Positions 1 through 23,402 of a stretch of DNA of 47,976 bases are shown piece by piece. Position 1 is the first letter of the stretch. Each line of letters begins with the position of its first letter. Origin of the DNA: a virus. Its lineage: Duplodnaviria; Heunggongvirae; Uroviricota; Caudoviricetes. A program made the translations under genes and the position numbers. The notes under the pieces are model-generated. The model did not search any database. It worked only from the letters and a program-made list of their open reading frames with translations, and was not told the origin of the DNA. The DNA is taken from the IMG/VR virus record IMGVR_UViG_2512047041_000006. One strand, 5' to 3'.

Positions 1-1131
1 TCAAATGACCAGTTTTTTCCATTCCTTACCGCGTGCGTCGTTGTAAATATCGGTCATTTTTTGATTCGAATGGCCTAGCAAAATTTTGGTATCAACCCCC
101 TGCTCTCTGAACAATCGCTCTGATAAAGATCTCTGCTCATGGAAAGAGGGAGGGGTGCCATTAGCACGCCAGTTGTAATCCACAGAATCCCGGGCTTTTT
201 TAAATGCAACGGTTAATGTTGCTGGCTTAACCATCCCGCCGCGCTTAGCTGTCCCTTTCGCGTGATGGTGGTGCAATAGCCACGGACTAAGAACGCAATC
301 GCGGCAGGATGACACCACATCATCCAGGGTGAGATTTAATTTATCGCAACGCAGAGCCAGAGGGATGGCAATCCGGGTTCCTGTTTTTTGCTGTTCGACA
401 TGAAGATAACCATCCCGGATATCCGAAAATTGCATTTTGCAAATATCTGAAAGGCGCTGGCCTGTCATCAGTGCCAGCAGCATACCGCGCTGTAAAAAGT
501 AACCATCCTTTTCCGCTGCGTTATAAATCATCATCCACTCATCAAAAGTCAGTCGCTGTCTTGATATCCGCACCTGCGGTTTTTTTGCCGATTCTGCAGG
601 GTTAAAGCCTGGCGGGACATCGCCCGTTTGCTGAGCTTCCCGGAAAACATCGATCAGTACTTTCCTGAAAATTTGTCCCATTCTGTTATGTCCTCTGGCC
701 TTGTACTCTTCCAGTACTGATACCACATCTTTTACGGTTATGGCATCTAACGGTCTGGTGCCAAAACGTTCATCAAATACCCTGAGAGGAGCTGCTTTCT
801 GTTTCAGCGTGTTGAGTTTGATCTCGCCGTTTTCATATCTTTCCTGTTGAATTTTTCTGTAATTATTCAGAAAAATGGTAACGGTTGATGAACCGCCGGT
901 ATCACTAATAATTTTCTCCTGCAGACTGAGCATTTGTTCCATTTGCTGCCGGGCAAGACGGCTGTTCGCTTCTGCTGCAATAGTTTCTGCCAGTTTCTGG
1001 TCAATACTGCCGAGACCGTGATTTTTGCCTGTTATGGGATGCCTGTAACGCCAGTAAACTTTGTTATTTCTTTTGTCAAAATACGGAGATAATCCCGGAA
1101 CATCGGTTTTATATTTTCGCGGGCGCGCCAT
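1..1131 (-). CDS. int: Tyrosine integrase, lambda Int family
   Basis: 376-aa ORF; recognisable similarity to lambda Int incl. catalytic region motifs (TGQRLSDI, FHEQRSL, LLGHSNQKMTDIYND); stop codon at window positions 1-3; 5' end overlaps xis. Confidence 0.93.
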   Translation of the reverse strand: MARPRKYKTDVPGLSPYFDKRNNKVYWRYRHPITGKNHGLGSIDQKLAETIAAEANSRLARQQMEQMLSLQEKIISDTGGSSTVTIFLNNYRKIQQERYENGEIKLNTLKQKAAPLRVFDERFGTRPLDAITVKDVVSVLEEYKARGHNRMGQIFRKVLIDVFREAQQTGDVPPGFNPAESAKKPQVRISRQRLTFDEWMMIYNAAEKDGYFLQRGMLLALMTGQRLSDICKMQFSDIRDGYLHVEQQKTGTRIAIPLALRCDKLNLTLDDVVSSCRDCVLSPWLLHHHHAKGTAKRGGMVKPATLTVAFKKARDSVDYNWRANGTPPSFHEQRSLSERLFREQGVDTKILLGHSNQKMTDIYNDARGKEWKKLVI

Positions 1132-1357
1132 CTTCCAGTATCCTCTTCAAAGCAGGGTGATCTGTGGCGATCACCTCCGGCTTGTTTACCATTCCGACAA
1201 AGCGAGCTTGCGGATCCACTCGCCAGCGTCTTCCAACTTTTTTGGGGAGAGGAAATATCATTCCGGCTTTAGCGTATTTACTTAACGTACTCGGAGTAGG
1301 GACCGGTTCACTGAATTCCTCTTTTGCCCACTCAGTGAGCAGAATAAGTCTTGCCAT
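1109..1357 (-). CDS. xis: Excisionase-like small DNA-binding protein
   Basis: 82-aa ORF directly upstream of int, 3' end overlapping int start by 23 nt; assignment by position and size. Confidence 0.6.
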   Translation of the reverse strand: MARLILLTEWAKEEFSEPVPTPSTLSKYAKAGMIFPLPKKVGRRWRVDPQARFVGMVNKPEVIATDHPALKRILEDGAPAKI

Positions 1358-1421: not shown

Positions 1422-2876
1422 TTAAAAATCAGCCTGACTTGGGATCAGTTTTTGCCAGATAACTGAAACGTATTTTGCCTGGTAACGGGCGTCATCAAGT
1501 GCATTATGGCGCTCACCTTCGAATGGAATAGCCGTTCTGGCATCGAAGTCTATGGCTTTCCCCAGCTCAACGATTGTGCGTACATCGCGATCGTTGTAGT
1601 AACGCCACGGGCAGGGGATCCCCTGCCGTTCGTATGAACGGCGCAAAATCGTGTTGTCGAAGTTGGCTCCATTTCCCCAAACCTGAACAAAAAATTCACC
1701 GGAGTTTTCGTCGATAAATTCCCGCAATTGTAACAGTGCATCATCTAACGGGATTTCATCGGTCATAATGGCAGATTGCGCTTCGCGTGATTGCTTAAGC
1801 CACCATTTAATGGTGTCCCGATCAATGACTCCGCCAGCAGTTTCCAGATCGATAGTCTTACTAAATTCCGGTCCCATATCTCCGGTTTGCGGATCGAAAA
1901 ATATTGCACCTATTGAGATGATCGGGGCATCAGGATTTTTTCCCATGGTTTCAAGGTCGATCATTAGATGGTCACACGTCCTGCTGGTGGATGTGATTTC
2001 GTGATGACCGTTCACCTTAATTGAGCGATCTGCCGTCTCGCCAGTTTCATTATCGCTATCGTGATGCTGATTGCCGCCAGTGTTCTCCTTGTGTGGATGT
2101 TCAGCGCCTTCCATTTCCTCCGGATCATCTTCCTGAACTTCAACCTGATACTCTTCATCGAATGTTTCCTGGTATGTTGCGTCGCCCATCACCGCGCCAC
2201 AATCAGGGCAGTTGCCGCCGCCGGTCTGACCGCAGGCGGTGCAGACTTTTTCCACTTCCTGTTGCGCCACTGGTTCAGGCTGTTTCGTTTCTGGCTCGTT
2301 TTGTAACGCATTTGGGCTGTTTTGTTCCGCTTTTTGGTAGTTCCGTTCCGATTCATGCTGATTCTGGTTCACAGAATCGCGGGTCTGGATCCCCTTAACC
2401 CATTTCGGATCATTCGGGTCACTAATCCCTTCAACAAATTCACCACGTGATGCAGCAAGCAACTTATCGGCGTCAGGCTGGCTGATATTGGCTGCCTGCA
2501 TAATTTTGTTTACTTCGTCAGCGGTAACTTTTATCGGCTCTGGTTGTTCTGAATCTTCAGCGGTATCTACATTTTGCGGTAAGCCCGTGTATGTGCCATT
2601 TTTTCGGGCAAAATATTCTTCTTTTGTGATTTCAGTGGCGCCAGCAGCCAGTGCCTTATCCAGACCAGAAAGTTTGTTTGCGCGACCGCATTTTTCTCCG
2701 TCCTTATCTGCGAAGAGGAAATAGAACGGCCCCTCACGCTCTACAGATGGTTCAGCTTCCGGCGCGGTTTCATTTTTTGGGATATCAGATACCTCAGTTT
2801 CCACTGCATCAGTTTGTGTTTCTGATGACTGGAGAACATCAACAGTGCCCAGGTCTGTTTCTTCATTCTCAAACAC
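1422..2876 (-). CDS. DEDDh (DnaQ-like) 3'-5' exonuclease domain protein with zinc ribbon
   Basis: 484 aa; C-terminal motifs MIDLETMG / WGNGANFD / [10 protein letters not shown] typical of DEDDh exonucleases; CTACGQ...CPDCG zinc-ribbon-like motif; acidic low-complexity N-terminal half. Confidence 0.7.
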
Positions 2877-3894
2877 GCCCTTTGTCGTCAGGTATTCGCA
2901 GATATATTTTGTTCAGTGCTATGGGATCTTTGTGAATGTCGATCGGACGCTCACGGACAAGGCCAAAAATAGTTTGGCGGTCGTAGCGAAGGGCATCAGG
3001 CTGTTTGCGCATTGATGCCGAGATACGCTTCCAGTCTTCGCGGTCGTTGTCGATAACTTCATTTTTTGCCCAGCGATGGATGCTGCCGTCAATGTTTCCG
3101 GCATCCACATCACCAGGCCAGAGAGCGTAGGCCAGTTCGTCATCCAGTGTTTTCCATGTCTGCTTGTATTCGCGATGAATGGCAGCAATGACCGGGCTGA
3201 TTTTTCCTGTTGAATTTTCACTGTGCTGTTGATTGGTTCTGGCGCGGGCGAGATCAATAACAGACGTGTATTTTCCGGTTTCCTTACGTTCACCTTCGCG
3301 ACGTTTTTTCCAGATGCGCATCTCTGCCTGAATTTCGGGCCATTTGGCACCAGGCTTACATTTATGCTTAACCCACCCGATGGCATGCAGCTTAAGCTCC
3401 GGATACATGGCGTTAACTTCTGGCATTTTCATCAACGCTTCAACGATATGTCCGTCGAATGTTGCCATGTCTTCCTGCAACAATTCCTGTGCGCTAATAA
3501 CCATATCAACGGTGATGTTTTCACATGTGTCGAACTTAACCATGACAGCGTTCTGTACTTCAGGGGCCAGCTTGTCAAAAGTGACGTTCATCGGATCGGA
3601 TTCAGTCTCAACCGGGACAAAGGAAGCAGACTCCTCATCCCAGCGGTTTTCCTGCATATATTCAGCATCCCAGGAATCGAGGGCAGGGCGGGGTATGCCG
3701 GGTTTATCCTCACAGACAATAAATTTATAAGCGCAGTCCTGAGCTGCAGGGAATTGCTCCAGAAATTGCCAATGAAATTTTGCGCGTGCGCGACGCTCAT
3801 CACCAGCTTCAATGGCAGTGGCCACCGCAACAGCGCTATCTTCTTTTATGGCCTGTTCATCAGGAATAGCAGCGCAAATAAAGACCTTACTCAT
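2869..3894 (-). CDS. Hypothetical early-left operon protein
   Basis: 341-aa ORF, translationally coupled (8-nt overlap) to the exonuclease gene; no family recognised. Confidence 0.5.
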
Positions 3895-3989: not shown

Positions 3990-4178
3990 TTATCCAGCCG
4001 GTGTTTCGTTATTCAGGTACAGCGATACTTTTTTTAGCGGGAGGCATTCACCAGAAATTTTTTGCTCGTCTCTTGCCTGGAGGCAGGATTCTTTACTTGC
4101 ATAAATTCCGGTAATCACATTCTGTGATTCACCCGTTATAAGAAAAACCGTCATCATCAGTGCAAATGCTGAAGTCAT
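3990..4178 (-). CDS. Small membrane protein (YdfD-like position downstream of dicB)
   Basis: 62-aa ORF with hydrophobic N-terminus (AFALMMTVFLITG); start overlaps dicB stop (4175-4178); in Qin prophage dicB is followed by the small lysis protein gene ydfD. Confidence 0.4.
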   Translation of the reverse strand: MTSAFALMMTVFLITGESQNVITGIYASKESCLQARDEQKISGECLPLKKVSLYLNNETPAG

Positions 4179-4363
4179 TGACGTTCTCCGAAAATACCAA
4201 GTTCAAGAAGAGCAATTCGGGAAAGTATGGAATTATCATTGAGCAGATAAGGCTCATATTTCCTCATATTAATGGCATCTTCAGTAAACTCCCGGTTACT
4301 GAGCAGAACACCAATATCAAAACAACCTTCAGACGTATTAACGTTTGGTAATAACGTTTCCAT
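4175..4363 (-). CDS. dicB: Cell division inhibitor DicB homologue
   Basis: 62 aa, N-terminus METLLPNVNTSEGCFDIGV...FTEDAIN closely matches E. coli K-12 DicB as recalled; located immediately downstream of dicF on the same strand. Confidence 0.85.
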   Translation of the reverse strand: METLLPNVNTSEGCFDIGVLLSNREFTEDAINMRKYEPYLLNDNSILSRIALLELGIFGERQ

Positions 4364-4546
4364 TATCGCGTCCTCAACAATGAATTTTGTGATGCAGTGC
4401 CTGGTGCCTCCAGGTGACGTTAACCAGTTAACAATTAACGCCGGGTTAGTTGATGCTCGTTACGCCCGTAAAATACCGCCTTACTGCTTTAACTGTTCCG
4501 CGTGCGCATAGCCGCATTCACCGCATCACAAAATTCACTTTAAAAA

Positions 4547-4600
4547 GGGCGGCAGAGCAGTCACGGAGTAAAACTGATACCGCCAAATGTCACCAGAAAA
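4547..4600 (-). ncRNA. dicF: DicF small RNA
   Basis: Minus-strand sequence TTTTCTGGTGACATTTGGCGGTATCAGTTTTACTCCGTGACTGCTCTGCCGCCC followed by T-run; near-identical to the 53-nt DicF of K-12 Qin prophage as recalled; includes its 3' stem-loop. Confidence 0.85.
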
Positions 4601-4934
4601 TTGATAACAGAGGGCGTTGTAGCGGGGTTGTCACTTAAGCGTATGGTCAACCTGACAACCCGGTGCATTTTCTGGAGCAATGGAGGAAACCCCAGCCATA
4701 CTTACCGCCGCGCCATTTCGCGGAGTGCCACAACCGGAAGCGCACGGTCGAACTAAATTTAACGACACCGTACAGAGAGACCAATTTCGCCGTGCGCTTT
4801 CGCGTTATGCCCTGACTTTTCAGGGACATATCCTTTCAGTAAGCTGTCAGTGCCGGATGCTCACCCGTGTCCGGCGCACGCACTCCACCTGACCCGTGGA
4901 GAACTCCTTAATTACCAACCCTCAGGAGGGTGAA

Positions 4935-5213
4935 ATGGATAAAAAGCAAATTGAGGCCCTGCAATCTATTATTGAAGAACAAGATGAAGCTATCAGGATT
5001 CTTTCATATCGCACTGATATGATACTAAATATGCTTTCTGCATTAACGGCTGCGCTTGGTGGTACAAAAACAAACGTATACCGCGAAGTTGTTATTCAAC
5101 AGATAGATAAATTTGAAAAAAACATACCAGGTATTAATGCTCATCTTGCAGAACAAGAGAAAGACCATGCTCTTATGGCAATTTCTTCAGTAGCTCTCCC
5201 GAAAGTTGAGTAG
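4935..5213 (+). CDS. Hypothetical coiled-coil protein, opposite orientation to early-left operon
   Basis: 92-aa ORF from ATG 4935 preceded by strong SD (AGGAGG, 4924-4929); protein-like composition; 3' end overlaps the convergent 5173-5586 gene by 41 nt. Confidence 0.45.
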   Translation: MDKKQIEALQSIIEEQDEAIRILSYRTDMILNMLSALTAALGGTKTNVYREVVIQQIDKFEKNIPGINAHLAEQEKDHALMAISSVALPKVE

Positions 5214-5586
5214 TTTTAATTGTTGTTTTGAAATAATCACTGCTTTCACATTTGAGTGATTTCATGGCAATCCAAATGCGGGCCTCTGTGCCTGCATTTG
5301 GTTCCAGTTGCTGTAGACGTTTTGCGTCTTCCAAAAGTAAGGCGATAATGTGTTTCAGCTTCTCATCATTTGCTTGATTCTTGTTTTCAGGCGAATTCTG
5401 TCCGCCGAATAGGCGCTTCTCTTCATACAGACCTATAAAGGCACGACGCACGTTACCGGATATAGTATCGATGGTTTCCTTTTCTACGGTACTCAGGTCA
5501 AGAGTCGCCAGTTGAGAGCGAACCACATTCGATGCCATTTCCTGGAATGGTACTGGTAAATCTTTAAATTCCATCGTCAACCTCAT
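5173..5586 (-). CDS. Hypothetical early-left operon protein
   Basis: 137-aa ORF; start overlaps stop of upstream ydfA-like gene (ATGA-type coupling at 5586). Confidence 0.5.
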   Translation of the reverse strand: MRLTMEFKDLPVPFQEMASNVVRSQLATLDLSTVEKETIDTISGNVRRAFIGLYEEKRLFGGQNSPENKNQANDEKLKHIIALLLEDAKRLQQLEPNAGTEARIWIAMKSLKCESSDYFKTTIKTTQLSGELLKKLP

Positions 5587-5738
5587 CAGTCAGTGTTTCT
5601 GGTTAACCAGCGACGCGCGCCAGCTTCAGTTTTAAACGTTTTGCTTCTGGTATACGTCATCGCGGTGAACGTACCGTCCTGGTTGGGGAACACGCCACAT
5701 ACCAGAGATTCGCTGTTGCCAAGATCGATAGTATCCAT
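5586..5738 (-). CDS. YdfA-like small protein (DUF1391-like), first gene of early-left operon
   Basis: 50-aa product from internal ATG (5736-5738) with GAGG SD 7 nt upstream; size and position match ydfA of Qin; ORF track extends it to 5819. Confidence 0.5.
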   Translation of the reverse strand: MDTIDLGNSESLVCGVFPNQDGTFTAMTYTRSKTFKTEAGARRWLTRNTD

Positions 5739-5924: not shown

Positions 5925-5961
5925 TACCCATAGGTATTTAAAAAGTAAACACCCATGGGTA
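5925..5961. promoter_or_regulatory. Left operator region (two palindromic repressor sites) upstream of early-left operon
   Basis: TACCCATAGGTA (5925-5936) and ACCCATGGGT (5951-5960, perfect palindrome) between repressor gene 3' end and ydfA-like gene; same ACC-N-GGT half-site pattern as sites at 6459-6495. Confidence 0.5.
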
Positions 5962-6003: not shown

Positions 6004-6423
6004 CTATGATGCGTTTTGTGCTTTCTTTTTACGGATTTCTTCGTAGATCATATTGTAATACTGTTTTTTCTCTTCAAGAGTTTTTAATAATTTATCCGCT
6101 TCACTTTCTGGCAGTTCGTCTAAGAGATCTAAAAAAATACGTTGTCGTGGCGTTAGAACCCTTGTTTCATAACTGGAGGCTGTGTTCGTTGATGATGAAA
6201 CGATACCATCCATCCATCCCCGGGGTAACCCAAAGGACTCTTCGATAATCTCCACCATATCATCAGCGATCCGTTTTTTTCCCTTTTTCCCCTCTGGGTA
6301 CAACATTCTTGATACATAAGAAGGCTCGCGCCCGATCTTTCTGGCCACGTTAACCGCTTTACCATCGCATTTCTCATCACGAATTTTGATGAGTTGCTGT
6401 CGTCTAAATTCATATTTGTCCAT
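6004..6423 (-). CDS. Prophage repressor, HTH DNA-binding protein (CI/DicA functional analogue)
   Basis: 139 aa; HTH-like segment GKAVNVARKIGREPSYVSRML; divergent from cro-like gene and flanked on both sides by palindromic operators; no S24 peptidase domain evident. Confidence 0.7.
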   Translation of the reverse strand: MDKYEFRRQQLIKIRDEKCDGKAVNVARKIGREPSYVSRMLYPEGKKGKKRIADDMVEIIEESFGLPRGWMDGIVSSSTNTASSYETRVLTPRQRIFLDLLDELPESEADKLLKTLEEKKQYYNMIYEEIRKKKAQNAS

Positions 6424-6458: not shown

Positions 6459-6495
6459 AACCTGTGGGTATTGACTTTTGTTTACCTGTGGGTAT
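6459..6495. promoter_or_regulatory. Right operator/promoter region (two repressor sites) between repressor and cro-like genes
   Basis: Direct repeat of AACCTGTGGGTAT (6459-6471) and TACCTGTGGGTAT (6483-6495) with TTGACT -35-like hexamer (6471-6476) between them; located in the 100-bp divergent intergenic region. Confidence 0.55.
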
Positions 6496-11025: not shown

Positions 11026-11262
11026 TTTTATGGATCACCTTTCTGATTGATTTCATATTGGCGAGGTGACGTGAGTTAAGTAGAATGGCTGCGGGTGCTT
11101 GAGGCTATCTGTCTCAGGCATGAACACTGAAAGGCAGATAGAGAAAAGCCCCAGTTAACATTTCGCGTCCTGCAAGACGCTTAACATTAATCTGAGGCCC
11201 AATCTATGTCTCACAAATGTAGGTTAGCCTCTTACGTGCCGAAAGGCAAGGGGAAGCAGGCT

Positions 11263-11418
11263 ATGAAGCAGCAAAAGGCGATGTTAATCGCCCTGATCGT
11301 CATCTGTTTAACCGTCATAGTGACGGCACTGGTAACGAGGAAAGACCTCTGCGAGGTACGACTCCGAACCGGCCAGACGGAGGTCGCTGTCTTCACAGCT
11401 TACGAACCTGAGGAGTAA
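11263..11418 (+). CDS. hok: Hok/Gef family type I toxin
   Basis: 51-aa product MKQQKAMLIALIVICLTVIVTALVTRKDLCEVR.RTGQTEVAVFTAYEPEE, near-identical to HokD/RelF as recalled; in-frame upstream extension from 11206 may be a mok-like leader ORF. Confidence 0.85.
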   Translation: MKQQKAMLIALIVICLTVIVTALVTRKDLCEVRLRTGQTEVAVFTAYEPEE

Positions 11419-15626: not shown

Positions 15627-15702
15627 GGCCCTTTAGCTCAGTGGTGAGAGCGAGCGACTCATAATCGCCAGGTCGCTGGTTCAAATCCAGCAAGGGCCAC
15701 CA
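15627..15702 (+). tRNA. ileZ: tRNA-Ile2 (anticodon CAT, lysidine type; ileX/ileZ-like)
   Basis: 76 nt with encoded CCA; full cloverleaf fits; near-identical to E. coli ileX as recalled. Confidence 0.85.
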
Positions 15703-15709
15703 TCACATA

Positions 15710-15786
15710 CCGCCATTAGCTCATCAGGAAAGAGCGCCAGCTTTCGAAGCTGGTTGCGCGGAGTTCGGGTCCCCGAAGGCGGTCCA
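15710..15786 (+). tRNA. tRNA-Arg-like (anticodon TCG), atypical
   Basis: 77 nt cloverleaf with encoded CCA, anticodon loop TTTCGAA; one acceptor-stem and one T-stem mismatch, T-loop TTCGGGT, discriminator T - possibly degenerate. Confidence 0.5.
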
Positions 15787-15799
15787 TTATCTGTATCCT

Positions 15800-15876
15800 G
15801 CGTTGTTAGCTCAGCCGGACAGAGCAATTGCCTTCTAAGCAATCGGTCACTGGTTCGAATCCAGTACAACGCGCCA
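15800..15876 (+). tRNA. tRNA-Arg (anticodon TCT, argU-like)
   Basis: 77 nt; canonical cloverleaf, T-loop TTCGAAT, anticodon loop CTTCTAA, encoded CCA. Confidence 0.85.
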
Positions 15877-15891
15877 CACTTATTTTCCCTG

Positions 15892-15914
15892 GCTCGCTTT
15901 TGCGGGCTTTTTTT
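15892..15914 (+). terminator. Rho-independent terminator after tRNA cluster
   Basis: GCTCGC-TTTT-GCGGGC hairpin followed by T7. Confidence 0.5.
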
Positions 15915-15920
15915 AAATGT

Positions 15921-16133
15921 CTCACAATTCAGGCGGTTGACTGTTGTCTGGTTTGCGGGGAGTTTGTTAAAAGAAACTGGCATGGTGAATCCCCCTGTGC
16001 GGAGGGGCAATCAGCGAGTAGGTATATGGGATAATCGCGGATTCAGGTGCTGGTACTGAATTCACCGGGAGGCACCCGGCACCATGCAATGGCACATAGC
16101 GCCACTCTCCAGCCCCTCTCCGGAGGGGCTTTT
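15921..16133 (+). repeat. Noncoding repeat module, copy A
   Basis: Shares ordered conserved blocks with copy B: CTCACAATTCAG, GTTGAC, TTGTTAAAA, GCATGGTGAATCCCCCTG-GCGGAGGGGC, TCACCGGGAGGCACCCGGCACCATG, AGCCCCTCTCCGGAGGGGCTTT. Confidence 0.6.
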
Positions 16134-16388
16134 CTGTGCCGGATACATCACAGTTTCTGGAACCTTAGGTACTACAGTATCAGTCAGGGTGCTATATTTT
16201 CAGATGTGATGAAAGCCTGTCAGCAGGCAGGGCGTATCGGAAATGACCCAGTAGAGAAAACGTTGACTCAGATACCGGTGCTGAGTTACCGGGAAACCGG
16301 CATCACATGACCGCTATCCTTCCAGGCCCATCCGCTCCGGTGGGCCTTTTTACTGCAGAAAACAGGTTCCCCGTTAAATGCTATGTTG

Positions 16389-16620
16389 CTCACAATTCAG
16401 TAAGTTGACAGTTGCCTGTCAGACTGGGCATTTGTTAAAAAAATTTCGCATGGTGAATCCCCCTGAGCGGAGGGGCGACTGGTGACGGTATAATCTCTGA
16501 TTATCAAAACGAGAATGACGCGGGTTTAGTGGCACCGGGCTGAACTCACCGGGAGGCACCCGGCACCATGTGCATGATGATACAGATACGCGGCTTTAGC
16601 CCCTCTCCGGAGGGGCTTTC
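16389..16620 (+). repeat. Noncoding repeat module, copy B
   Basis: Second copy 468 bp downstream of copy A; contains a perfect TATAAT (in GGTATAATCTCT) and the same three GC-rich hairpins. Confidence 0.6.
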
Positions 16621-16850
16621 TTATGGACAAAAAAAGCCCGCGCTGGGAGACGCGGGCGGCAAGGAATAAACAATAAAACGTGAAGTAATATTTCAGCTGG
16701 CGAATAATACCCCATAGTAATCACTCTGCGCAACTGCGCGGTCTTTTTCGAATTGCGGGCTGTAGTCTCCCTTCTGCCATTGTCCTGTAACTTCCGGACT
16801 TCAGCCTGCTCCTTATCTGACTCACAACATTATCCCGCCCGGGAGGATTC

Positions 16851-18704
16851 ATGGCATTTAAACACTATGACGTGGTCAGGGCGGCATCGCCGTCAGACCT
16901 TGCGAAACGACTGACACAAAAACTGAAGGAGGGCTGGCAGCCGTTTGGTAGTCCGGTGGCCATAACCCCTTATACCCTGATGCAGGCGATTGCAGCAGAA
17001 GGTGATGTGGTCGTCAGTGGTGCAACTGAGCCGGAGTGGTACTACGTCATCGTACTGGCCGGGCAATCCAATGCCATGGCTTACGGTGAAGGGCTTCCGC
17101 TTCCGGATTCATACGATGCGCCCCATCCGCGCATTAAGCAACTGGCCCGTCGTAACACAGTGACTCCCGGTGGTGAAGTATGCGTATTTAACGACATCAT
17201 TCCTGCTGACCATTGTCTGCATGATGTTCAGGATATGAGTACGATTAACCATCCCCGGGCTGACCTGAGCAAAGGGCAGTACGGCTGTGTCGGACAGGGC
17301 TTACATATTGCCAAAAAACTGCTTCCGTATATCCCTAATAATGCGGGGATCCTGCTGGTACCATGCTGTCGTGGTGGTTCGGCATTCACCCAGGGCACGG
17401 AGGGGACATTCAGCGAGTCCACGGGAGCCAGTCAGGATTCGGCTCGCTGGGGAGTGGGTAAGCCGTTATATCAGGATCTGCTTTTCCGCACGAAGGCAGC
17501 ATTGCAGAAAAACCCGAAAAACGTTTTGCTGGCGATATGCTGGATGCAGGGGGAATTCGATATGACGAATGCCAGTTACGCCCAGCAGCCAGCAGCATTT
17601 CTTGCAATGGTACAGCAGTTCCGTGCTGACCTTGCCGGGCTGGCGGCGCAGTGTCACGGTGGAAGTCCGGCATCAGTCCCCTGGATTTGTGGCGACACGA
17701 CATACGCGTGGAAACAAGAACACGGTACGCAATATGAAGTGGTATATGGTGCATATAAAGGTAAAGAATCCCAGCAGATTTATTTTGTTCCCTTTATGAC
17801 CGATGGTAGCGGAGTTAATACACCGACAAACAACCCGTCAGAAGATCCTGATATTGCCGGGTCTGGTTATTACGGTTCGGCATCCCGAACGAACAAAAAC
17901 TGGGTATCATCAAATCGCCCGACGCATTTCAGCTCATGGGCGCGTCGTGGCATTATTCCCGATCGTATGGCAACTGCTATTCTGAACGTAGCCGGTCGCA
18001 CCTTAGCCTTCATTAGTGGTAAGGCACCGGAAATCAAAGCCTCGCCCGGCGGCGACACGCCATCGGGGCCGTCTGAAGATGCATCCATACGCACAATCTC
18101 CCTGTTGCCGACAGCCGGAGACGCTGCTGCGCAGGGCTGGAGCATTAAGAATGGCGGAATTCAGTTGTCAGATGGTGTATTTAAGATCACCAAGCAGAGC
18201 AATAAAGCCTGGTCCCTGACGCGCCCGGTGGATGACGCAGTCTCCCTGCTGACACGGGGTGGCAGACTGAGCTGTAAGTTTCGACTGTCAGGCGCACTGA
18301 CCAACAACCAGTTCGGTCTGGGAATTTATCTGTATACCGATGTAGCGTTACCTGACGTCGTGGCGATGACCGGGACTGGTAACCCGTTCCTGATGTCGTT
18401 CTTCACCCAGACCACAGACGGCAAACTGAATCTGATGCATCACAAGAAAGCAGGAAACACAAAGTTGGGCGAGTTCGGGAATTACAGTAACGACTGGCAG
18501 ACGCTGGAGCTGGTGTTCACCGCCGGCAGTGCCACGGTTACTCCGAAACTGAATGGAGTGGCTGGCCCGGCATTCCAGGTCATAAAAGACAGTCTGACAC
18601 TGGGGCTGAATGCGCTGACGCTGACGGATATTACCAAAAATGCAGCGTATGGCGTTGAGATAGAAAGTCTGGTGCTGGAGATAAATGCACCGGCATCATC
18701 ATAA
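16851..18704 (+). CDS. NanS-p-like sialate O-acetylesterase (DUF1737 + SGNH/SASA esterase)
   Basis: 617 aa; SGNH motif VLAGQSNAMAYGEG; N-terminal DUF1737-like segment; position between tRNA cluster and holin as in Stx-phage late regions. Confidence 0.72.
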   Translation: MAFKHYDVVRAASPSDLAKRLTQKLKEGWQPFGSPVAITPYTLMQAIAAEGDVVVSGATEPEWYYVIVLAGQSNAMAYGEGLPLPDSYDAPHPRIKQLARRNTVTPGGEVCVFNDIIPADHCLHDVQDMSTINHPRADLSKGQYGCVGQGLHIAKKLLPYIPNNAGILLVPCCRGGSAFTQGTEGTFSESTGASQDSARWGVGKPLYQDLLFRTKAALQKNPKNVLLAICWMQGEFDMTNASYAQQPAAFLAMVQQFRADLAGLAAQCHGGSPASVPWICGDTTYAWKQEHGTQYEVVYGAYKGKESQQIYFVPFMTDGSGVNTPTNNPSEDPDIAGSGYYGSASRTNKNWVSSNRPTHFSSWARRGIIPDRMATAILNVAGRTLAFISGKAPEIKASPGGDTPSGPSEDASIRTISLLPTAGDAAAQGWSIKNGGIQLSDGVFKITKQSNKAWSLTRPVDDAVSLLTRGGRLSCKFRLSGALTNNQFGLGIYLYTDVALPDVVAMTGTGNPFLMSFFTQTTDGKLNLMHHKKAGNTKLGEFGNYSNDWQTLELVFTAGSATVTPKLNGVAGPAFQVIKDSLTLGLNALTLTDITKNAAYGVEIESLVLEINAPASS

Positions 18705-20594: not shown

Positions 20595-21061
20595 ATGAAC
20601 CGCGTACTGTGCGTGGTCATCATTGCCCTGCTGGTGGCCTGTGGTGCGCTTAGTCTGGGGCTGAATCATTACCGTGAAACGCCATTACCTACAAAGCCCA
20701 GCGCGACAAAAATGTCAGAGAACTGAAGCTGGCGAACGCGGCAATTACTGACATGCAGATGCGTCAGCGTGATGTTGCTGCGCTCGATGCAAAATACACG
20801 AAGGAGTTAGCTGATGCGAAAGCTGAAAATGAAACTCTTCGCGCTGACGTTGCCGCTGGTCGTAAGCGCCTGCGTATCAACGCCACCTGTCCAGGTCCCG
20901 TGCGTGAAGCCACCGGCACCGCCCGCGTGGATAATGCAACCGGCCCCCAACTGGCAGACACCGTTACACGGGATTATTTCACCCTCAGAGAGCGGCTGAT
21001 GACGATGCAGAAGCAACTGGAAGGGGCGCAGGAATATATCCGTACTCAGTGCCTGAAATAA
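20595..21061 (+). pseudogene. Rz: Rz i-spanin, interrupted by frameshift
   Basis: N-terminal TM part in frame 0 (20595-20726, 43 codons, ends NHYR-ETPLP..stop); lambda-Rz-like C-terminal part ([12 protein letters not shown]...) in frame 2 from 20678 to 21061; consistent with a 1-nt deletion near 20677. Confidence 0.7.
20814..20999 (+). CDS. Rz1: Rz1 o-spanin lipoprotein
   Basis: 61 aa; lipobox LVVSAC; Pro-rich; embedded in +1 frame of Rz C-terminal region. Confidence 0.8.
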
Positions 21062-21870: not shown

Positions 21871-22043
21871 AATGTTTCCCCATATTCAGTGTTGCTGATT
21901 TGTATTATCTGAAGTTGCTTTTACGTTAATTTGATGCAGATCAATTAATACGATACCTGCGTCATAATTGATTATTTCTCGTGGTTTGATGGCGTACACA
22001 GTGAACCGCCCCGGGTTTCCTGGAGAGTGTTTTATCTGTGAAC

Positions 22044-22934
22044 TCAGGCTGCCAGATCATCGTTTCCGATGGAAGCATAATAAGCTTTTTCTGCTTCTGC
22101 CGGAGGAGTATGGCCCAGCCTTTCCAGCAATCGTCGATTGTTATACCAGTCCACCCACGTGAGTGTGGCCAGTTCCACTTCTGCACGGTTTTTCCAGCTC
22201 TTACGGTGTATTACCTCCGCTTTGTAAAGACCATTGATGCTCTCCGCCATCGCGTTGTCATACGAGTCGCCTGTACTTCCTGTTGATGCCAGTAATCCGG
22301 CTTCCTTAAGCCGCTGTGTGTAGGCCAGCGATACATACTGAGAACCTTTATCACTGTGATGGACCGTGCCGGACGGTCGACGGGCCCATAACGCCTGCTC
22401 CAGTGCATCCAGCACGAATGTCGTTTCCATGGACGATGAGACCCGCCACCCCACGATGTATCCGGCAAACACATCAATGATGAACGCCACATAGACGAAG
22501 CCCCGCCATGTGCTGACGTAAGTAAAATCAGCCACCCACAGCTGGTCAGGTCGTTCTGCCACGAACTGACGGTTTACGCGGTCGCCTGCGGCAACGGCTT
22601 TCCGGCTGATGGTCGTACGGACCTTTTTACCCCGGAGAACACCGGCAAGTCCCATAACCGCCATGAGACGTGCCACAGTGCATCTGGCCACTCTGATACC
22701 TTCCCGTAACAACTGACGCCAGACTTTACGCACACCGTATACCTTGTGATTTTCATCGTATACGCGCTGTATCTCTTTCTTCAGCCAGTCATCGCGCTGC
22801 GCACGGGCACTGCGTTTATCCGGATGATGTCGCTGTTGCTGACAGTGGTAATACGTTGACGGGGCAATATGCAGTTCGCTGCATAGCGGTCCGACCCCGT
22901 ACTGCTCACGCAGCTTATCCAGCAGTGGCATCAT
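22044..22934 (-). CDS. IS3-family transposase OrfB (DDE integrase domain)
   Basis: 296 aa, IS629-type OrfB sequence; start overlaps orfA end at an A-rich site consistent with frameshift fusion. Confidence 0.9.
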
Positions 22935-23257
22935 TTTTTCCAGAGGCGGTCGAACTCCGCCTTCGCAAAATAAGCGGAAGCCTGGCGAAGGATATCGTTA
23001 CTGCGGCGCAGTTCACGATTTTCACGTTCCAGCTCTTTCAGACGCTGACGTTCAGCGGTGGTGAGCCCTCCATCACCGCCCCCGGTATCCCGCTCATGCT
23101 GGCGAACCCAGACACGCAGAGTCTCCGGCGTACAGCCAATCTTTGGAGCAATGGAACAAATTGTCGCCCATTGTGAGTCATATTCGCTCTGACTTTCCAG
23201 AACCATACGGACTGCCCGTTGACGGACTTCGGGGGAAAAACGAGTATTTTTAGTCAT
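22931..23257 (-). CDS. IS3-family transposase OrfA (HTH)
   Basis: 108 aa; leucine-zipper-like C-terminus; ends in TGGAAAAAATGA overlapping orfB start. Confidence 0.9.
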
Positions 23258-23390
23258 CCTGTTTACCTCTTTCTCAGGAAGTTTAGTCTCCAGGATTCCC
23301 GGGGCGGTTCACACATGTTGTGATAAACCTTATATAGATGATAATCATTATCATTTTCGTGGGTCCTTTCCGGCGATCCGACCGGTTACG

Positions 23391-23402
23391 GGGCGGCGAC
23401 CT
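23391..23402 (+). other. cosN cohesive-end site (lambda type)
   Basis: GGGCGGCGACCT preceded by ...GATCCGACCGGTTACG and followed by CGCGGATTTTCACTATTTATGAAAATTTTCCGG, matching lambda genome ends and cosB as recalled. Confidence 0.8.

What the first reader, a model, noticed from the sequence alone, without database searches (positions are those of the whole stretch)
4175..4600. DicF sRNA and DicB division inhibitor in the early-left operon of a prophage that otherwise looks complete
4547-4600 (minus) reproduces DicF including its 3' hairpin, and the adjacent 62-aa ORF is DicB. They are known from the defective Qin prophage of K-12. Here they sit in an element with int, repressor/operators, replication genes, lysis genes, cos and a full head and tail set, downstream of operator sites at 5925-5961, so they would be de-repressed on induction. 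DicB is also reported to block ManYZ-dependent phage DNA entry, so the module may act in superinfection exclusion.
Basis: partly seen in the sequence, partly recalled or inferred. Interest (0 to 1): 0.5.

Follow-up and report, generated by a model that had tools for sequence, protein, structure and literature searches.

The report
Known DicF/DicB module in lambdoid prophage
The window really does carry the DicF small RNA and the DicB cell-division inhibitor in the leftward early operon of an ompW-integrated lambda-like prophage. This module is present in most E. coli genomes, is already annotated in databases, and is already known from working phages, so it is ordinary.

Summary
dicF lies at 4547-4599 (-): Rfam RF00039 77 bits against a cut-off of 48, and 52/53 identical to K-12. 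dicB lies at 4175-4363 (-): a full-length 62-aa ORF, Pfam PF05358 125.5 bits. Both sit in a ydfA ... dicF-dicB-ydfD-exo-xis-int leftward operon downstream of a repressor gene flanked by two pairs of ACCyrTrGGTA operator-like sites.

The window is about 99.9% identical to an ompW-integrated lambdoid prophage of E. coli N32, where RefSeq already names this exact protein DicB.

dicF-dicB DNA occurs in 4640 of 5426 complete E. coli genomes. It is also found in plaque-forming phages (Tritos, mEp460_ev081), and this has been noted in print.

Two details differ from K-12. DicF has G12A, which weakens only the predicted xylR pairing. DicB has the common "type B" C-terminal half: 63% identity to K-12 overall, under purifying selection, but never directly tested for division inhibition.

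The prophage is nearly complete, not fully. Rz is frameshifted, an IS629-like element sits 78 bp from cosN, and the exo gene is split.

Verdict: a correct call of a known module, with low novelty.

The parts
4547..4599 (-). dicF small RNA gene (53 nt): single-stranded 5' region, then a terminator-type hairpin and U run. G12A relative to K-12.
   Evidence: Rfam RF00039 77 bits; 52/53 identical to K-12 b1574; hairpin -15.9 kcal/mol
4175..4363 (-). dicB, 62-aa cell-division inhibitor with the 'type B' C-terminal half
   Evidence: Pfam PF05358 125.5 bits; 63% identical to K-12 DicB; identical to RefSeq WP_000449175.1, annotated DicB; all 19 invariant family columns kept
4364..4546 (-). dicF-dicB spacer. 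The first 60 nt and the last ~95 nt are almost identical to K-12, including the dicB ribosome-binding site.
4600..5172 (-). Untranslated leader upstream of dicF. The proximal ~340 nt are homologous to the K-12 ydfC-dicF intergenic region, which contains the RNase III and RNase E processing sites.
   Evidence: alignment to K-12; column conservation above 0.9 over 88 distinct copies; processing sites from bioRxiv 10.1101/2023.04.14.536235
3990..4178 (-). ydfD-like DUF1482 gene, overlapping the dicB stop by 4 nt
   Evidence: Pfam PF07358 54 bits; 44% identical to K-12 YdfD
5586..5738 (-). ydfA homologue (DUF1391), first gene of the leftward operon
   Evidence: Pfam PF07151 93 bits; near-identical DNA to K-12 ydfA; PGAP start
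5173..5574 (-). 133-aa ORF of unknown function, in the place of K-12 ydfB/ydfC
   Evidence: PHROG 1363, E = 9.5e-45; PGAP hypothetical protein
5925..5961 (-). OL-like pair of operator sites (TACCCATAGGTA / CACCCATGGGTA, 25 bp apart) overlapping a weak pL-like promoter, TTTACT-17-TATCCT
   Evidence: The promoter was read by eye (8/12 matches, below the scan threshold).
6004..6423 (-). 139-aa repressor candidate with no peptidase domain, transcribed in the same direction as the dicB operon
   Evidence: PHROG 5736 transcriptional regulator, E = 6.4e-70; 39% identical to the CI repressor of phage Tritos
6460..6494 (+). OR-like pair of the same operator motif (24 bp apart), overlapping the PR-like promoter TTGACT-16-TATTCT that faces the cro-like gene
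1422..3894 (-). Exonuclease gene downstream of ydfD. A single 823-aa CDS in strain N32, split here into 341-aa and 484-aa ORFs by an extra T at 2907.
1..1357 (-). xis (1109-1357) and int (1-1131), at the distal end of the leftward transcription unit, next to ompW attL

Best explanation
This is a bona fide copy of the well-known dicBF module: ydfA - variable ORFs - long leader - dicF - dicB - ydfD. It occupies the pL-type early-left operon of an ompW-integrated, lambda-like prophage (PPompW type).

How it most likely works. While the 139-aa repressor occupies the ACCyrTrGGTA operators, the operon is off. When repression is lifted, a leftward transcript runs from about 5915 through ydfA and the leader. 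RNase III and then RNase E cut the leader, and the dicF hairpin with its U tract forms the 3' end, releasing the ~53-nt Hfq-dependent DicF. DicF pairs through its unchanged 3' and loop nucleotides with the ftsZ ribosome-binding site (and with manX) and lowers FtsZ synthesis. Transcripts that read through the hairpin are translated into DicB. DicB binds MinC and, through ZipA, brings it to the Z ring. Together the two products stop host division during early lytic development, as Kil does in lambda. A side effect is inhibition of ManYZ, so that lambda-like DNA entry is blocked.

Shown here: the identity, integrity, context and conservation of every sequence element.

Inferred from K-12 work: processing of the transcript, the DicF targets, and the MinC/ZipA/ManYZ mechanism.
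For: - Rfam and Pfam matches lie far above their curated thresholds.
- Gene order is the same as in K-12 Qin and in the functional phage Tritos.
- The dicF flanks, the dicB ribosome-binding site and the first 35 codons of dicB are near-identical to K-12.
- The ftsZ-pairing part of DicF is unchanged.
- Every invariant column of the DicB family is retained.
- Type-B dicB alleles show pN/pS of 0.19 overall and 0.14 in the divergent C-terminal half. Database clusters with hundreds of members keep the 62-aa length.
- The operator motif occurs only at the two flanks of the repressor gene.
- The mechanism is taken from PMC5069750, PMC6832061 and bioRxiv 10.1101/2023.04.14.536235.
Against: - No expression or phenotype data exist for this copy.
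- The C-terminal half of DicB is only about 40% identical to the tested K-12 protein. No direct division-inhibition test of a type-B protein was found in the papers read here.
- The pL-like promoter matches only 8/12 consensus positions and was not called by the scan.
- A 92-aa ORF lies antisense inside the operon.
- The repressor lacks a LexA-type cleavage domain, and no LexA box or Rem-like antirepressor was found, so the inducing signal is unknown.
- The prophage carries lesions and may never enter a productive lytic cycle.
Confidence: 0.85

Rival explanations
1. The element is a defective prophage, and the module is effectively a domesticated host regulator, as in Qin. It would be expressed at low level in stationary phase, under stress, or in a derepressed subpopulation. 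Its value would lie in DicF control of metabolism or virulence and in DicB-mediated resistance to ManYZ-dependent phages, not in the phage's own lytic cycle.
For: - Lesions in the prophage: Rz frameshift, IS629-like insertion, split exo gene.
- All PPompW prophages studied looked defective and were not packaged (PMC8112680).
- K-12 data show stationary-phase DicF and about 1% spontaneous derepression (bioRxiv 10.1101/2023.04.14.536235).
- dicBF is kept in 4640/5426 genomes, often in several copies.
Against: - The lesions are few and none clearly removes an essential function. cosN and the 78 bp to its left are untouched, Rz is dispensable for lambda in many laboratory conditions (own knowledge), and relatives without the IS exist.
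- The same module sits in plaque-forming phages (PMC9928086), so it is not specific to decayed elements.
- This reading complements the main one and does not exclude it.
Confidence: 0.3
2. The main role of the module in this prophage is superinfection exclusion: DicB (with DicF acting on manX) shuts ManYZ so that incoming lambda-like genomes cannot enter.
For: K-12 DicB lowers the efficiency of plating of lambda and other ManYZ-dependent phages, and this needs MinC (PMC6832061). DicF represses manX (PMC5069750).
Against: - The operon sits behind operators and should be off in the lysogen, which is when exclusion matters most.
- Immunity is already provided by the repressor.
- There is no PADLOC defence-system match for any protein of the operon.
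- The effect was shown only for type-A DicB under ectopic expression.
Confidence: 0.15
3. The type-B dicB is an inactive or functionally drifted relic, and only dicF is functional.
For: 63% identity to K-12 DicB, with most changes in residues 33-62. The AlphaFold model is only moderately confident (mean pLDDT 73.6).
Against: - Intact ORF and ribosome-binding site.
- pN/pS of 0.14 in the divergent half among type-B alleles (only five distinct sequences).
- The exact protein recurs in 17 of 123 dicF loci and in large database clusters.
- The hydrophobic pattern LLNxxxI(L/V)SxxAxLxL is shared by both types.
Confidence: 0.07

Closest known systems
dicBF operon of the Qin cryptic prophage, E. coli K-12 (ydfABC-dicF-dicB-ydfD)
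   Same: Same gene order and orientation relative to the repressor gene. ydfA, the ~340-nt leader, dicF (52/53), the dicB 5' half and the ydfD family are homologous.
   Different: - The immunity region is unrelated: a 139-aa repressor with YdaS/YdaT-like cro and cII genes and its own operators, instead of dicA/dicC.
- ydfB/ydfC are replaced by a 133-aa ORF plus an antisense 92-aa ORF.
- The DicB C-terminal half is type B.
- DicF carries G12A.
- The element keeps int, xis, replication, lysis, cos, head and tail genes.
Functional temperate phages carrying dicBF: Escherichia phage Tritos (LF82 prophage 3) and mEp460_ev081
   Same: The layout int-xis-exo-ydfD-dicB-dicF-ydfCBA-repressor-cro is the same as in the window. 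dicF and dicB are annotated in the phage record. The Tritos CI is 139 aa and 39% identical to the window repressor.
   Different: They encode type-A DicB (65-72% identical), keep ydfB/ydfC and have other operators. They are shown to make virions and plaques (PMC9928086), whereas this prophage is untested and carries lesions.
PPompW prophages of STEC O145:H28 and other E. coli (Nakamura et al. 2021)
   Same: Same ompW integration site, lambda-like organisation and type-B DicB (95% identical). About 90% DNA identity across ydfD-dicB-dicF and the dicF leader.
   Different: The late regions differ. Those prophages carry type III secretion (T3SS) effector loci and more extensive decay. The window prophage has no Stx phage inserted.
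Lambda Kil (and Rac KilR): division inhibitors in the pL operon
   Same: Works alike: a small early-left gene product that blocks FtsZ-ring function on induction (PMC3961180).
   Different: No sequence relationship. Kil acts on FtsZ in a ZipA-dependent way without MinC. The dicBF module adds an sRNA arm.

Membership tests
DicF RNA (Rfam RF00039) | Sequence and structure match to the covariance model above the gathering score | tested here: met
   77.0 bits against 48, full model, E = 2.1e-15
DicF RNA (Rfam RF00039) | 3' Rho-independent-terminator-type hairpin followed by a U run (3' end and Hfq module) | tested here: met
   Hairpin -15.9 kcal/mol followed by UUUUU; sequence identical to K-12 from nt 13 to 53
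DicF RNA (Rfam RF00039) | Nucleotides that pair with the ftsZ ribosome-binding site are intact | tested here: met
   The 3'/loop region is identical. The predicted DicF-ftsZ duplex is essentially unchanged (-38.5 vs -36.6 kcal/mol, K-12 ftsZ leader).
DicF RNA (Rfam RF00039) | 5' seed that pairs with xylR (and pykA) | tested here: inconclusive
   G12A puts a C.A mismatch in the middle of the 13-bp xylR duplex, -20.3 to -14.5 kcal/mol. The effect on regulation is unknown. pykA pairing was not computed.
DicF RNA (Rfam RF00039) | [quoted passage not shown] | not testable with these tools
   Only conservation of the flanks can be shown (59/60 upstream, 56/60 downstream, 164/200 alignment columns over -190..-1). 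MFE folds of the precursor were not better than shuffles.
DicB (Pfam PF05358) | Full-length profile match above the gathering score | tested here: met
   125.5 bits against 27, residues 1-62 of 62
DicB (Pfam PF05358) | Intact ~62-aa ORF immediately downstream of dicF and overlapping ydfD | tested here: met
   identical to RefSeq WP_000449175.1 'cell division inhibition protein DicB'
DicB (Pfam PF05358) | Family-invariant residues | tested here: met
   The window protein carries all 19 invariant columns of a 33-sequence alignment spanning both C-terminal types
DicB (Pfam PF05358) | Binds MinC and blocks division in a ZipA-dependent way; inhibits ManYZ | not testable with these tools
   Known only for K-12 type-A DicB (PMC6832061). 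There is no solved structure.
Lambdoid early-left (pL) operon of an intact prophage | Repressor gene bracketed by repeated operators that overlap divergent early promoters | tested here: met
   Four ACCyrTrGGTA sites in two pairs, found only there in the window. A PR-like promoter was found by the scan. The pL-like promoter is weak (8/12) and was read by eye.
Lambdoid early-left (pL) operon of an intact prophage | Complete, undamaged gene set for excision, replication, lysis, packaging and virion | tested here: not met
   All modules are present, and cosN GGGCGGCGACCT is at 23391-23402. However, Rz is frameshifted, an IS629-like element lies at 22001-23312, and exo is split at 2907.

The most novel reading that the evidence does not exclude
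The window carries a distinct functional allele pair. The first is a DicF (A12) that has lost tight pairing with xylR but keeps ftsZ and manX control. The second is a type-B DicB whose anciently diverged C-terminal half (pS about 0.78 against type A, yet under purifying selection) gives a different partner or target specificity from K-12 DicB, for example altered MinC/ZipA or ManYZ coupling. If so, the two DicB types exchanged by recombination among lambdoid phages would not be functionally equivalent.
Probability: 0.12. Interest if true: 0.4.

Novelty: already known. Interest (0 to 1): 0.12.

Why it matters
It matters little for discovery. The call is a correct annotation of a module that is present in about 85% of complete E. 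coli genomes, is already named in RefSeq for this exact protein, and is already documented in functional temperate phages.

Its modest value lies in three places:
- RefSeq does not annotate dicF in this prophage.
- It shows the module in a nearly intact ompW prophage of a CSF isolate.
- It points to two untested natural variants, DicF G12A and type-B DicB. These could be used to ask which DicF and DicB activities the phage actually needs.

Tried and rejected
- Folding of the ~225-nt DicF precursor region in the window and in K-12. The minimum-free-energy structures differ and are not better than shuffles (z = -1.5 and -1.3), so they give no support for a specific RNase III duplex.
- AlphaFold model of DicB. 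It is small, all-helical and of moderate confidence (pLDDT 73.6). I judged it too weak for a meaningful fold search and ran none.
- PDB sequence search for DicB: no match.
- PADLOC scan of the operon proteins: no defence-system match except a weak DEDDh hit for the exonuclease.
- Search for a Rem-like antirepressor next to hokD: no similarity.
- Search for a LexA box: the only match lies inside the tape-measure gene. The induction route therefore stays open.
- Reading 5925-5961 as a terminator for the repressor gene. The scan lists it as a 16-bp A/T-rich inverted repeat followed by a T run. The repeat arises because the operator motif there is close to its own reverse complement (exactly so at 5951-5960), so the two copies can pair with each other. 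The same motif recurs as direct repeats at the PR side. I therefore keep the operator reading, although a dual role is not excluded.
- Melson and Kendall 2019 (the EHEC dicF copies) could not be read.

Full report
**What is there**

On the minus strand the region reads, from right to left:
- a 139-aa repressor-like gene (6423->6004);
- two operator-like sites (5961->5925);
- a ydfA homologue (5738->5586);
- a 133-aa ORF (5574->5173);
- a ~570-nt untranslated stretch;
- dicF (4599->4547);
- a 183-nt spacer;
- dicB (4363->4175);
- a ydfD-like DUF1482 gene (4178->3990);
- a large exonuclease gene, xis and int.

Rfam's DicF model matches 4547-4598 over its full length at 77 bits (gathering score 48, E = 2.1e-15). 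The alignment to K-12 Qin gives 52/53 identity, the one change being G12A. The RNA folds into the expected 3' hairpin followed by UUUUU (-15.9 kcal/mol).

The 62-aa ORF matches Pfam DicB end to end at 125.5 bits. It is 63% identical to K-12 DicB without gaps. The neighbours are DUF1482/YdfD (44% identical to K-12 YdfD) and DUF1391/YdfA. The only coordinate quibble is one extra base at 4600.

**Where the window comes from**

The window is co-linear with E. coli strain N32 (a CSF isolate), NZ_CM165895.1 2308566-2356542, with 41 differences in 47,976 bases. In that record the element lies between an intact ompW and a 3' ompW fragment. It is therefore an ompW-integrated lambdoid prophage.

PGAP annotates the following: int, xis, exonuclease, DUF1482, dicB, a repressor-side hypothetical protein, cro-like and YdaT/CII-like genes, replication genes, hokD, RusA, Q, three tRNAs, holin, lysozyme, Rz (frameshifted), an IS3-family transposase, the terminase subunits, portal, protease, decoration and major capsid proteins, a full tail set, J, Lom and tail fibres.

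The exact DicB protein is RefSeq WP_000449175.1, named 'cell division inhibition protein DicB'. dicF is not annotated in that record.

**Is the prophage 'otherwise complete'?**

Nearly. The lambda cohesive-end sequence GGGCGGCGACCT is at 23391-23402, 185 bp before the small terminase gene. There are three lesions:
- Rz is frameshifted near codon 28, while Rz1 is intact.
- A 1.3-kb IS629-like element with 26-bp terminal inverted repeats at 22001-22026 and 23287-23312 sits 78 bp left of cosN.
- The 823-aa exonuclease gene of N32 is split in the window by an extra T in a T run at 2907. This could be a sequencing error.

Close relatives without the IS exist. Nakamura et al. found that all ompW prophages (PPompW) they examined looked defective and were not packaged (PMC8112680). 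Functionality here is therefore open.

**Regulatory context**

The motif ACCyrTrGGTA occurs only four times in the window: at 5925-5936 and 5951-5961, and at 6460-6470 and 6484-6494. That is two pairs, 25 and 24 bp apart, on either side of the repressor gene, against 0.07 expected (the motif was defined after seeing the sites).

The right pair overlaps a PR-like promoter, TTGACT-16-TATTCT, that faces the cro-like gene. The left pair overlaps TTTACT-17-TATCCT on the minus strand. That promoter has the same architecture but matches only 8/12 consensus positions, and I read it by eye.

The repressor is 39% identical to the CI of phage Tritos and has no S24 peptidase domain. I found no LexA box in a regulatory position and no Rem-like antirepressor. 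'De-repressed on induction' is therefore plausible, but the trigger is unknown.

**How it differs from K-12**

The pairwise alignment is mosaic:
- ydfA is about 93% identical.
- ydfB/ydfC are replaced by the 133-aa ORF plus a 92-aa ORF on the opposite strand (4935-5213, PHROG 18692).
- The ~340 nt before dicF, dicF itself, 60 nt after it, the ~95 nt before dicB and codons 1-35 of dicB are highly similar.
- Codons 36-62 of dicB, and ydfD, are diverged.

The leader is conserved at above 0.9 per column over 88 distinct copies from viral contigs. It covers the region where RNase III makes the 190-nt precursor (bioRxiv 10.1101/2023.04.14.536235).

DicB proteins fall into two C-terminal types. Type A is K-12-like (...ERELLNKICIVSMLARLRLMPKGCAQ). 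Type B is window-like (...YEPYLLNDNSILSRIALLELGIFGERQ). Hybrids also exist in the databases. Between the types, synonymous divergence in the C-terminal half is about 0.78. Within type B, pN/pS is 0.14 there (only five distinct sequences), which fits an old allele that is still maintained.

The exact window protein recurs in 17 of 123 dicF-containing loci. The dicB primers used for O157:H7 EDL933 match the window's 3' end exactly (PMC6915034), so type B is the EHEC form as well. I found no direct division-inhibition test of a type-B protein. The UTI89 region that caused filamentation encodes type A (PMC6206680).

The G12A allele of DicF is a minority form (15/123 loci). It leaves the predicted ftsZ pairing essentially unchanged. 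It places a C.A mismatch in the centre of the 13-bp DicF-xylR duplex, shifting the prediction from -20.3 to -14.5 kcal/mol.

**How it most likely works**

This part is inferred from K-12 work (PMC5069750, PMC6832061, bioRxiv 10.1101/2023.04.14.536235):
- Derepression gives a leftward polycistronic RNA.
- RNase III and RNase E, together with the intrinsic hairpin, release DicF. DicF, with Hfq, represses ftsZ and manX translation.
- Read-through transcripts give DicB, which binds MinC and targets it through ZipA to the Z ring. This also inhibits ManYZ and so blocks lambda DNA entry.
- In an inducing phage this is an early block to host division, functionally like lambda Kil.

The superinfection-exclusion idea is legitimate but secondary. 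The operon is behind operators, the effect was shown only on ectopic expression of type-A DicB, and no defence-system profile matches any protein of the operon.

**Comparison with what is known, and novelty**

dicF-dicB DNA is found in 4640 of 5426 complete E. coli genomes, with a median of two places per genome and up to nine. DicB is encoded in 20 phage records.

Balasubramanian et al. (2016) described multiple dicBF copies in large lambdoid prophages of O157:H7, and at that time found none in phage databases. Ragunathan et al. (2023) then pointed out the functional phage mEp460_ev081. Phage Tritos forms plaques, was imaged by TEM (PMC9928086), and has the same int-xis-exo-ydfD-dicB-dicF layout with dicF annotated.

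This copy is an ordinary member with common allelic variants. I rate it already known, with interest about 0.12.

The residual open questions are whether type-B DicB and A12 DicF behave like the K-12 forms, and whether this prophage is inducible.

Noticed in passing
window 4935-5213 (+) and 5173-5574 (-): A 92-aa ORF (PHROG 18692, unknown function) lies antisense inside the leftward early operon. It converges on the 133-aa ORF and overlaps it by 41 nt. Together the two ORFs replace K-12 ydfB/ydfC.
   Followed up: partly
window 4600-4940 (-): The ~340-nt untranslated leader upstream of dicF is conserved at above 0.9 per column over 88 distinct viral-contig copies, although the flanking ORFs are swapped. 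Indels relative to K-12 argue against a conserved ORF. MFE folding gave no significant structure.
   Followed up: partly
window 4175-4363 (-): DicB exists as two anciently diverged C-terminal types (A as in K-12, B as here), with recombinant hybrids in the databases. The breakpoint lies around codons 33-36.
   Followed up: partly
window 4588 (-), nt 12 of DicF: The G12A allele (15 of 123 dicF loci) is predicted to weaken the DicF-xylR duplex by about 6 kcal/mol while sparing the ftsZ pairing.
   Followed up: partly
window 20595-21061 (+): The Rz (i-spanin) gene is frameshifted near codon 28. The embedded Rz1 lipoprotein ORF (20814-20999) is intact.
   Followed up: yes
window 22001-23312: An IS629-like IS3-family element (26-bp terminal inverted repeats, ALIL frameshift pseudoknot at 22860-22976) is inserted 78 bp left of cosN (23391-23402). 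Close relatives lack it.
   Followed up: partly
window 2907, 11508, 14050: Three single-T indels in T runs relative to strain N32. The one at 2907 splits the 823-aa exonuclease gene into 341-aa and 484-aa ORFs. They may be sequencing errors.
   Followed up: partly
window 5950: The window has C where N32 has T. The N32 base would make the operator a perfect 12-bp palindrome, TACCCATGGGTA.
   Followed up: no
window 15627-16628 (+): Three tRNA genes (Ile, Arg, Arg by the N32 annotation) are followed by two copies of the STnc100 sRNA family (15951-16141 and 16419-16628), downstream of Q. A SASA-family carbohydrate esterase gene follows at 16851-18704.
   Followed up: no
window 11093-11417 (+): A hok/sok type I toxin-antitoxin locus (Rfam sok 120 bits; hokD CDS) in the nin region, next to a QueH (epoxyqueuosine reductase) gene.
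   Followed up: no
window 6004-6423 (-): The repressor candidate has no S24 peptidase domain, and no LexA box or Rem-like antirepressor was found in the window. The induction mechanism of this immunity type is unclear.
   Followed up: partly
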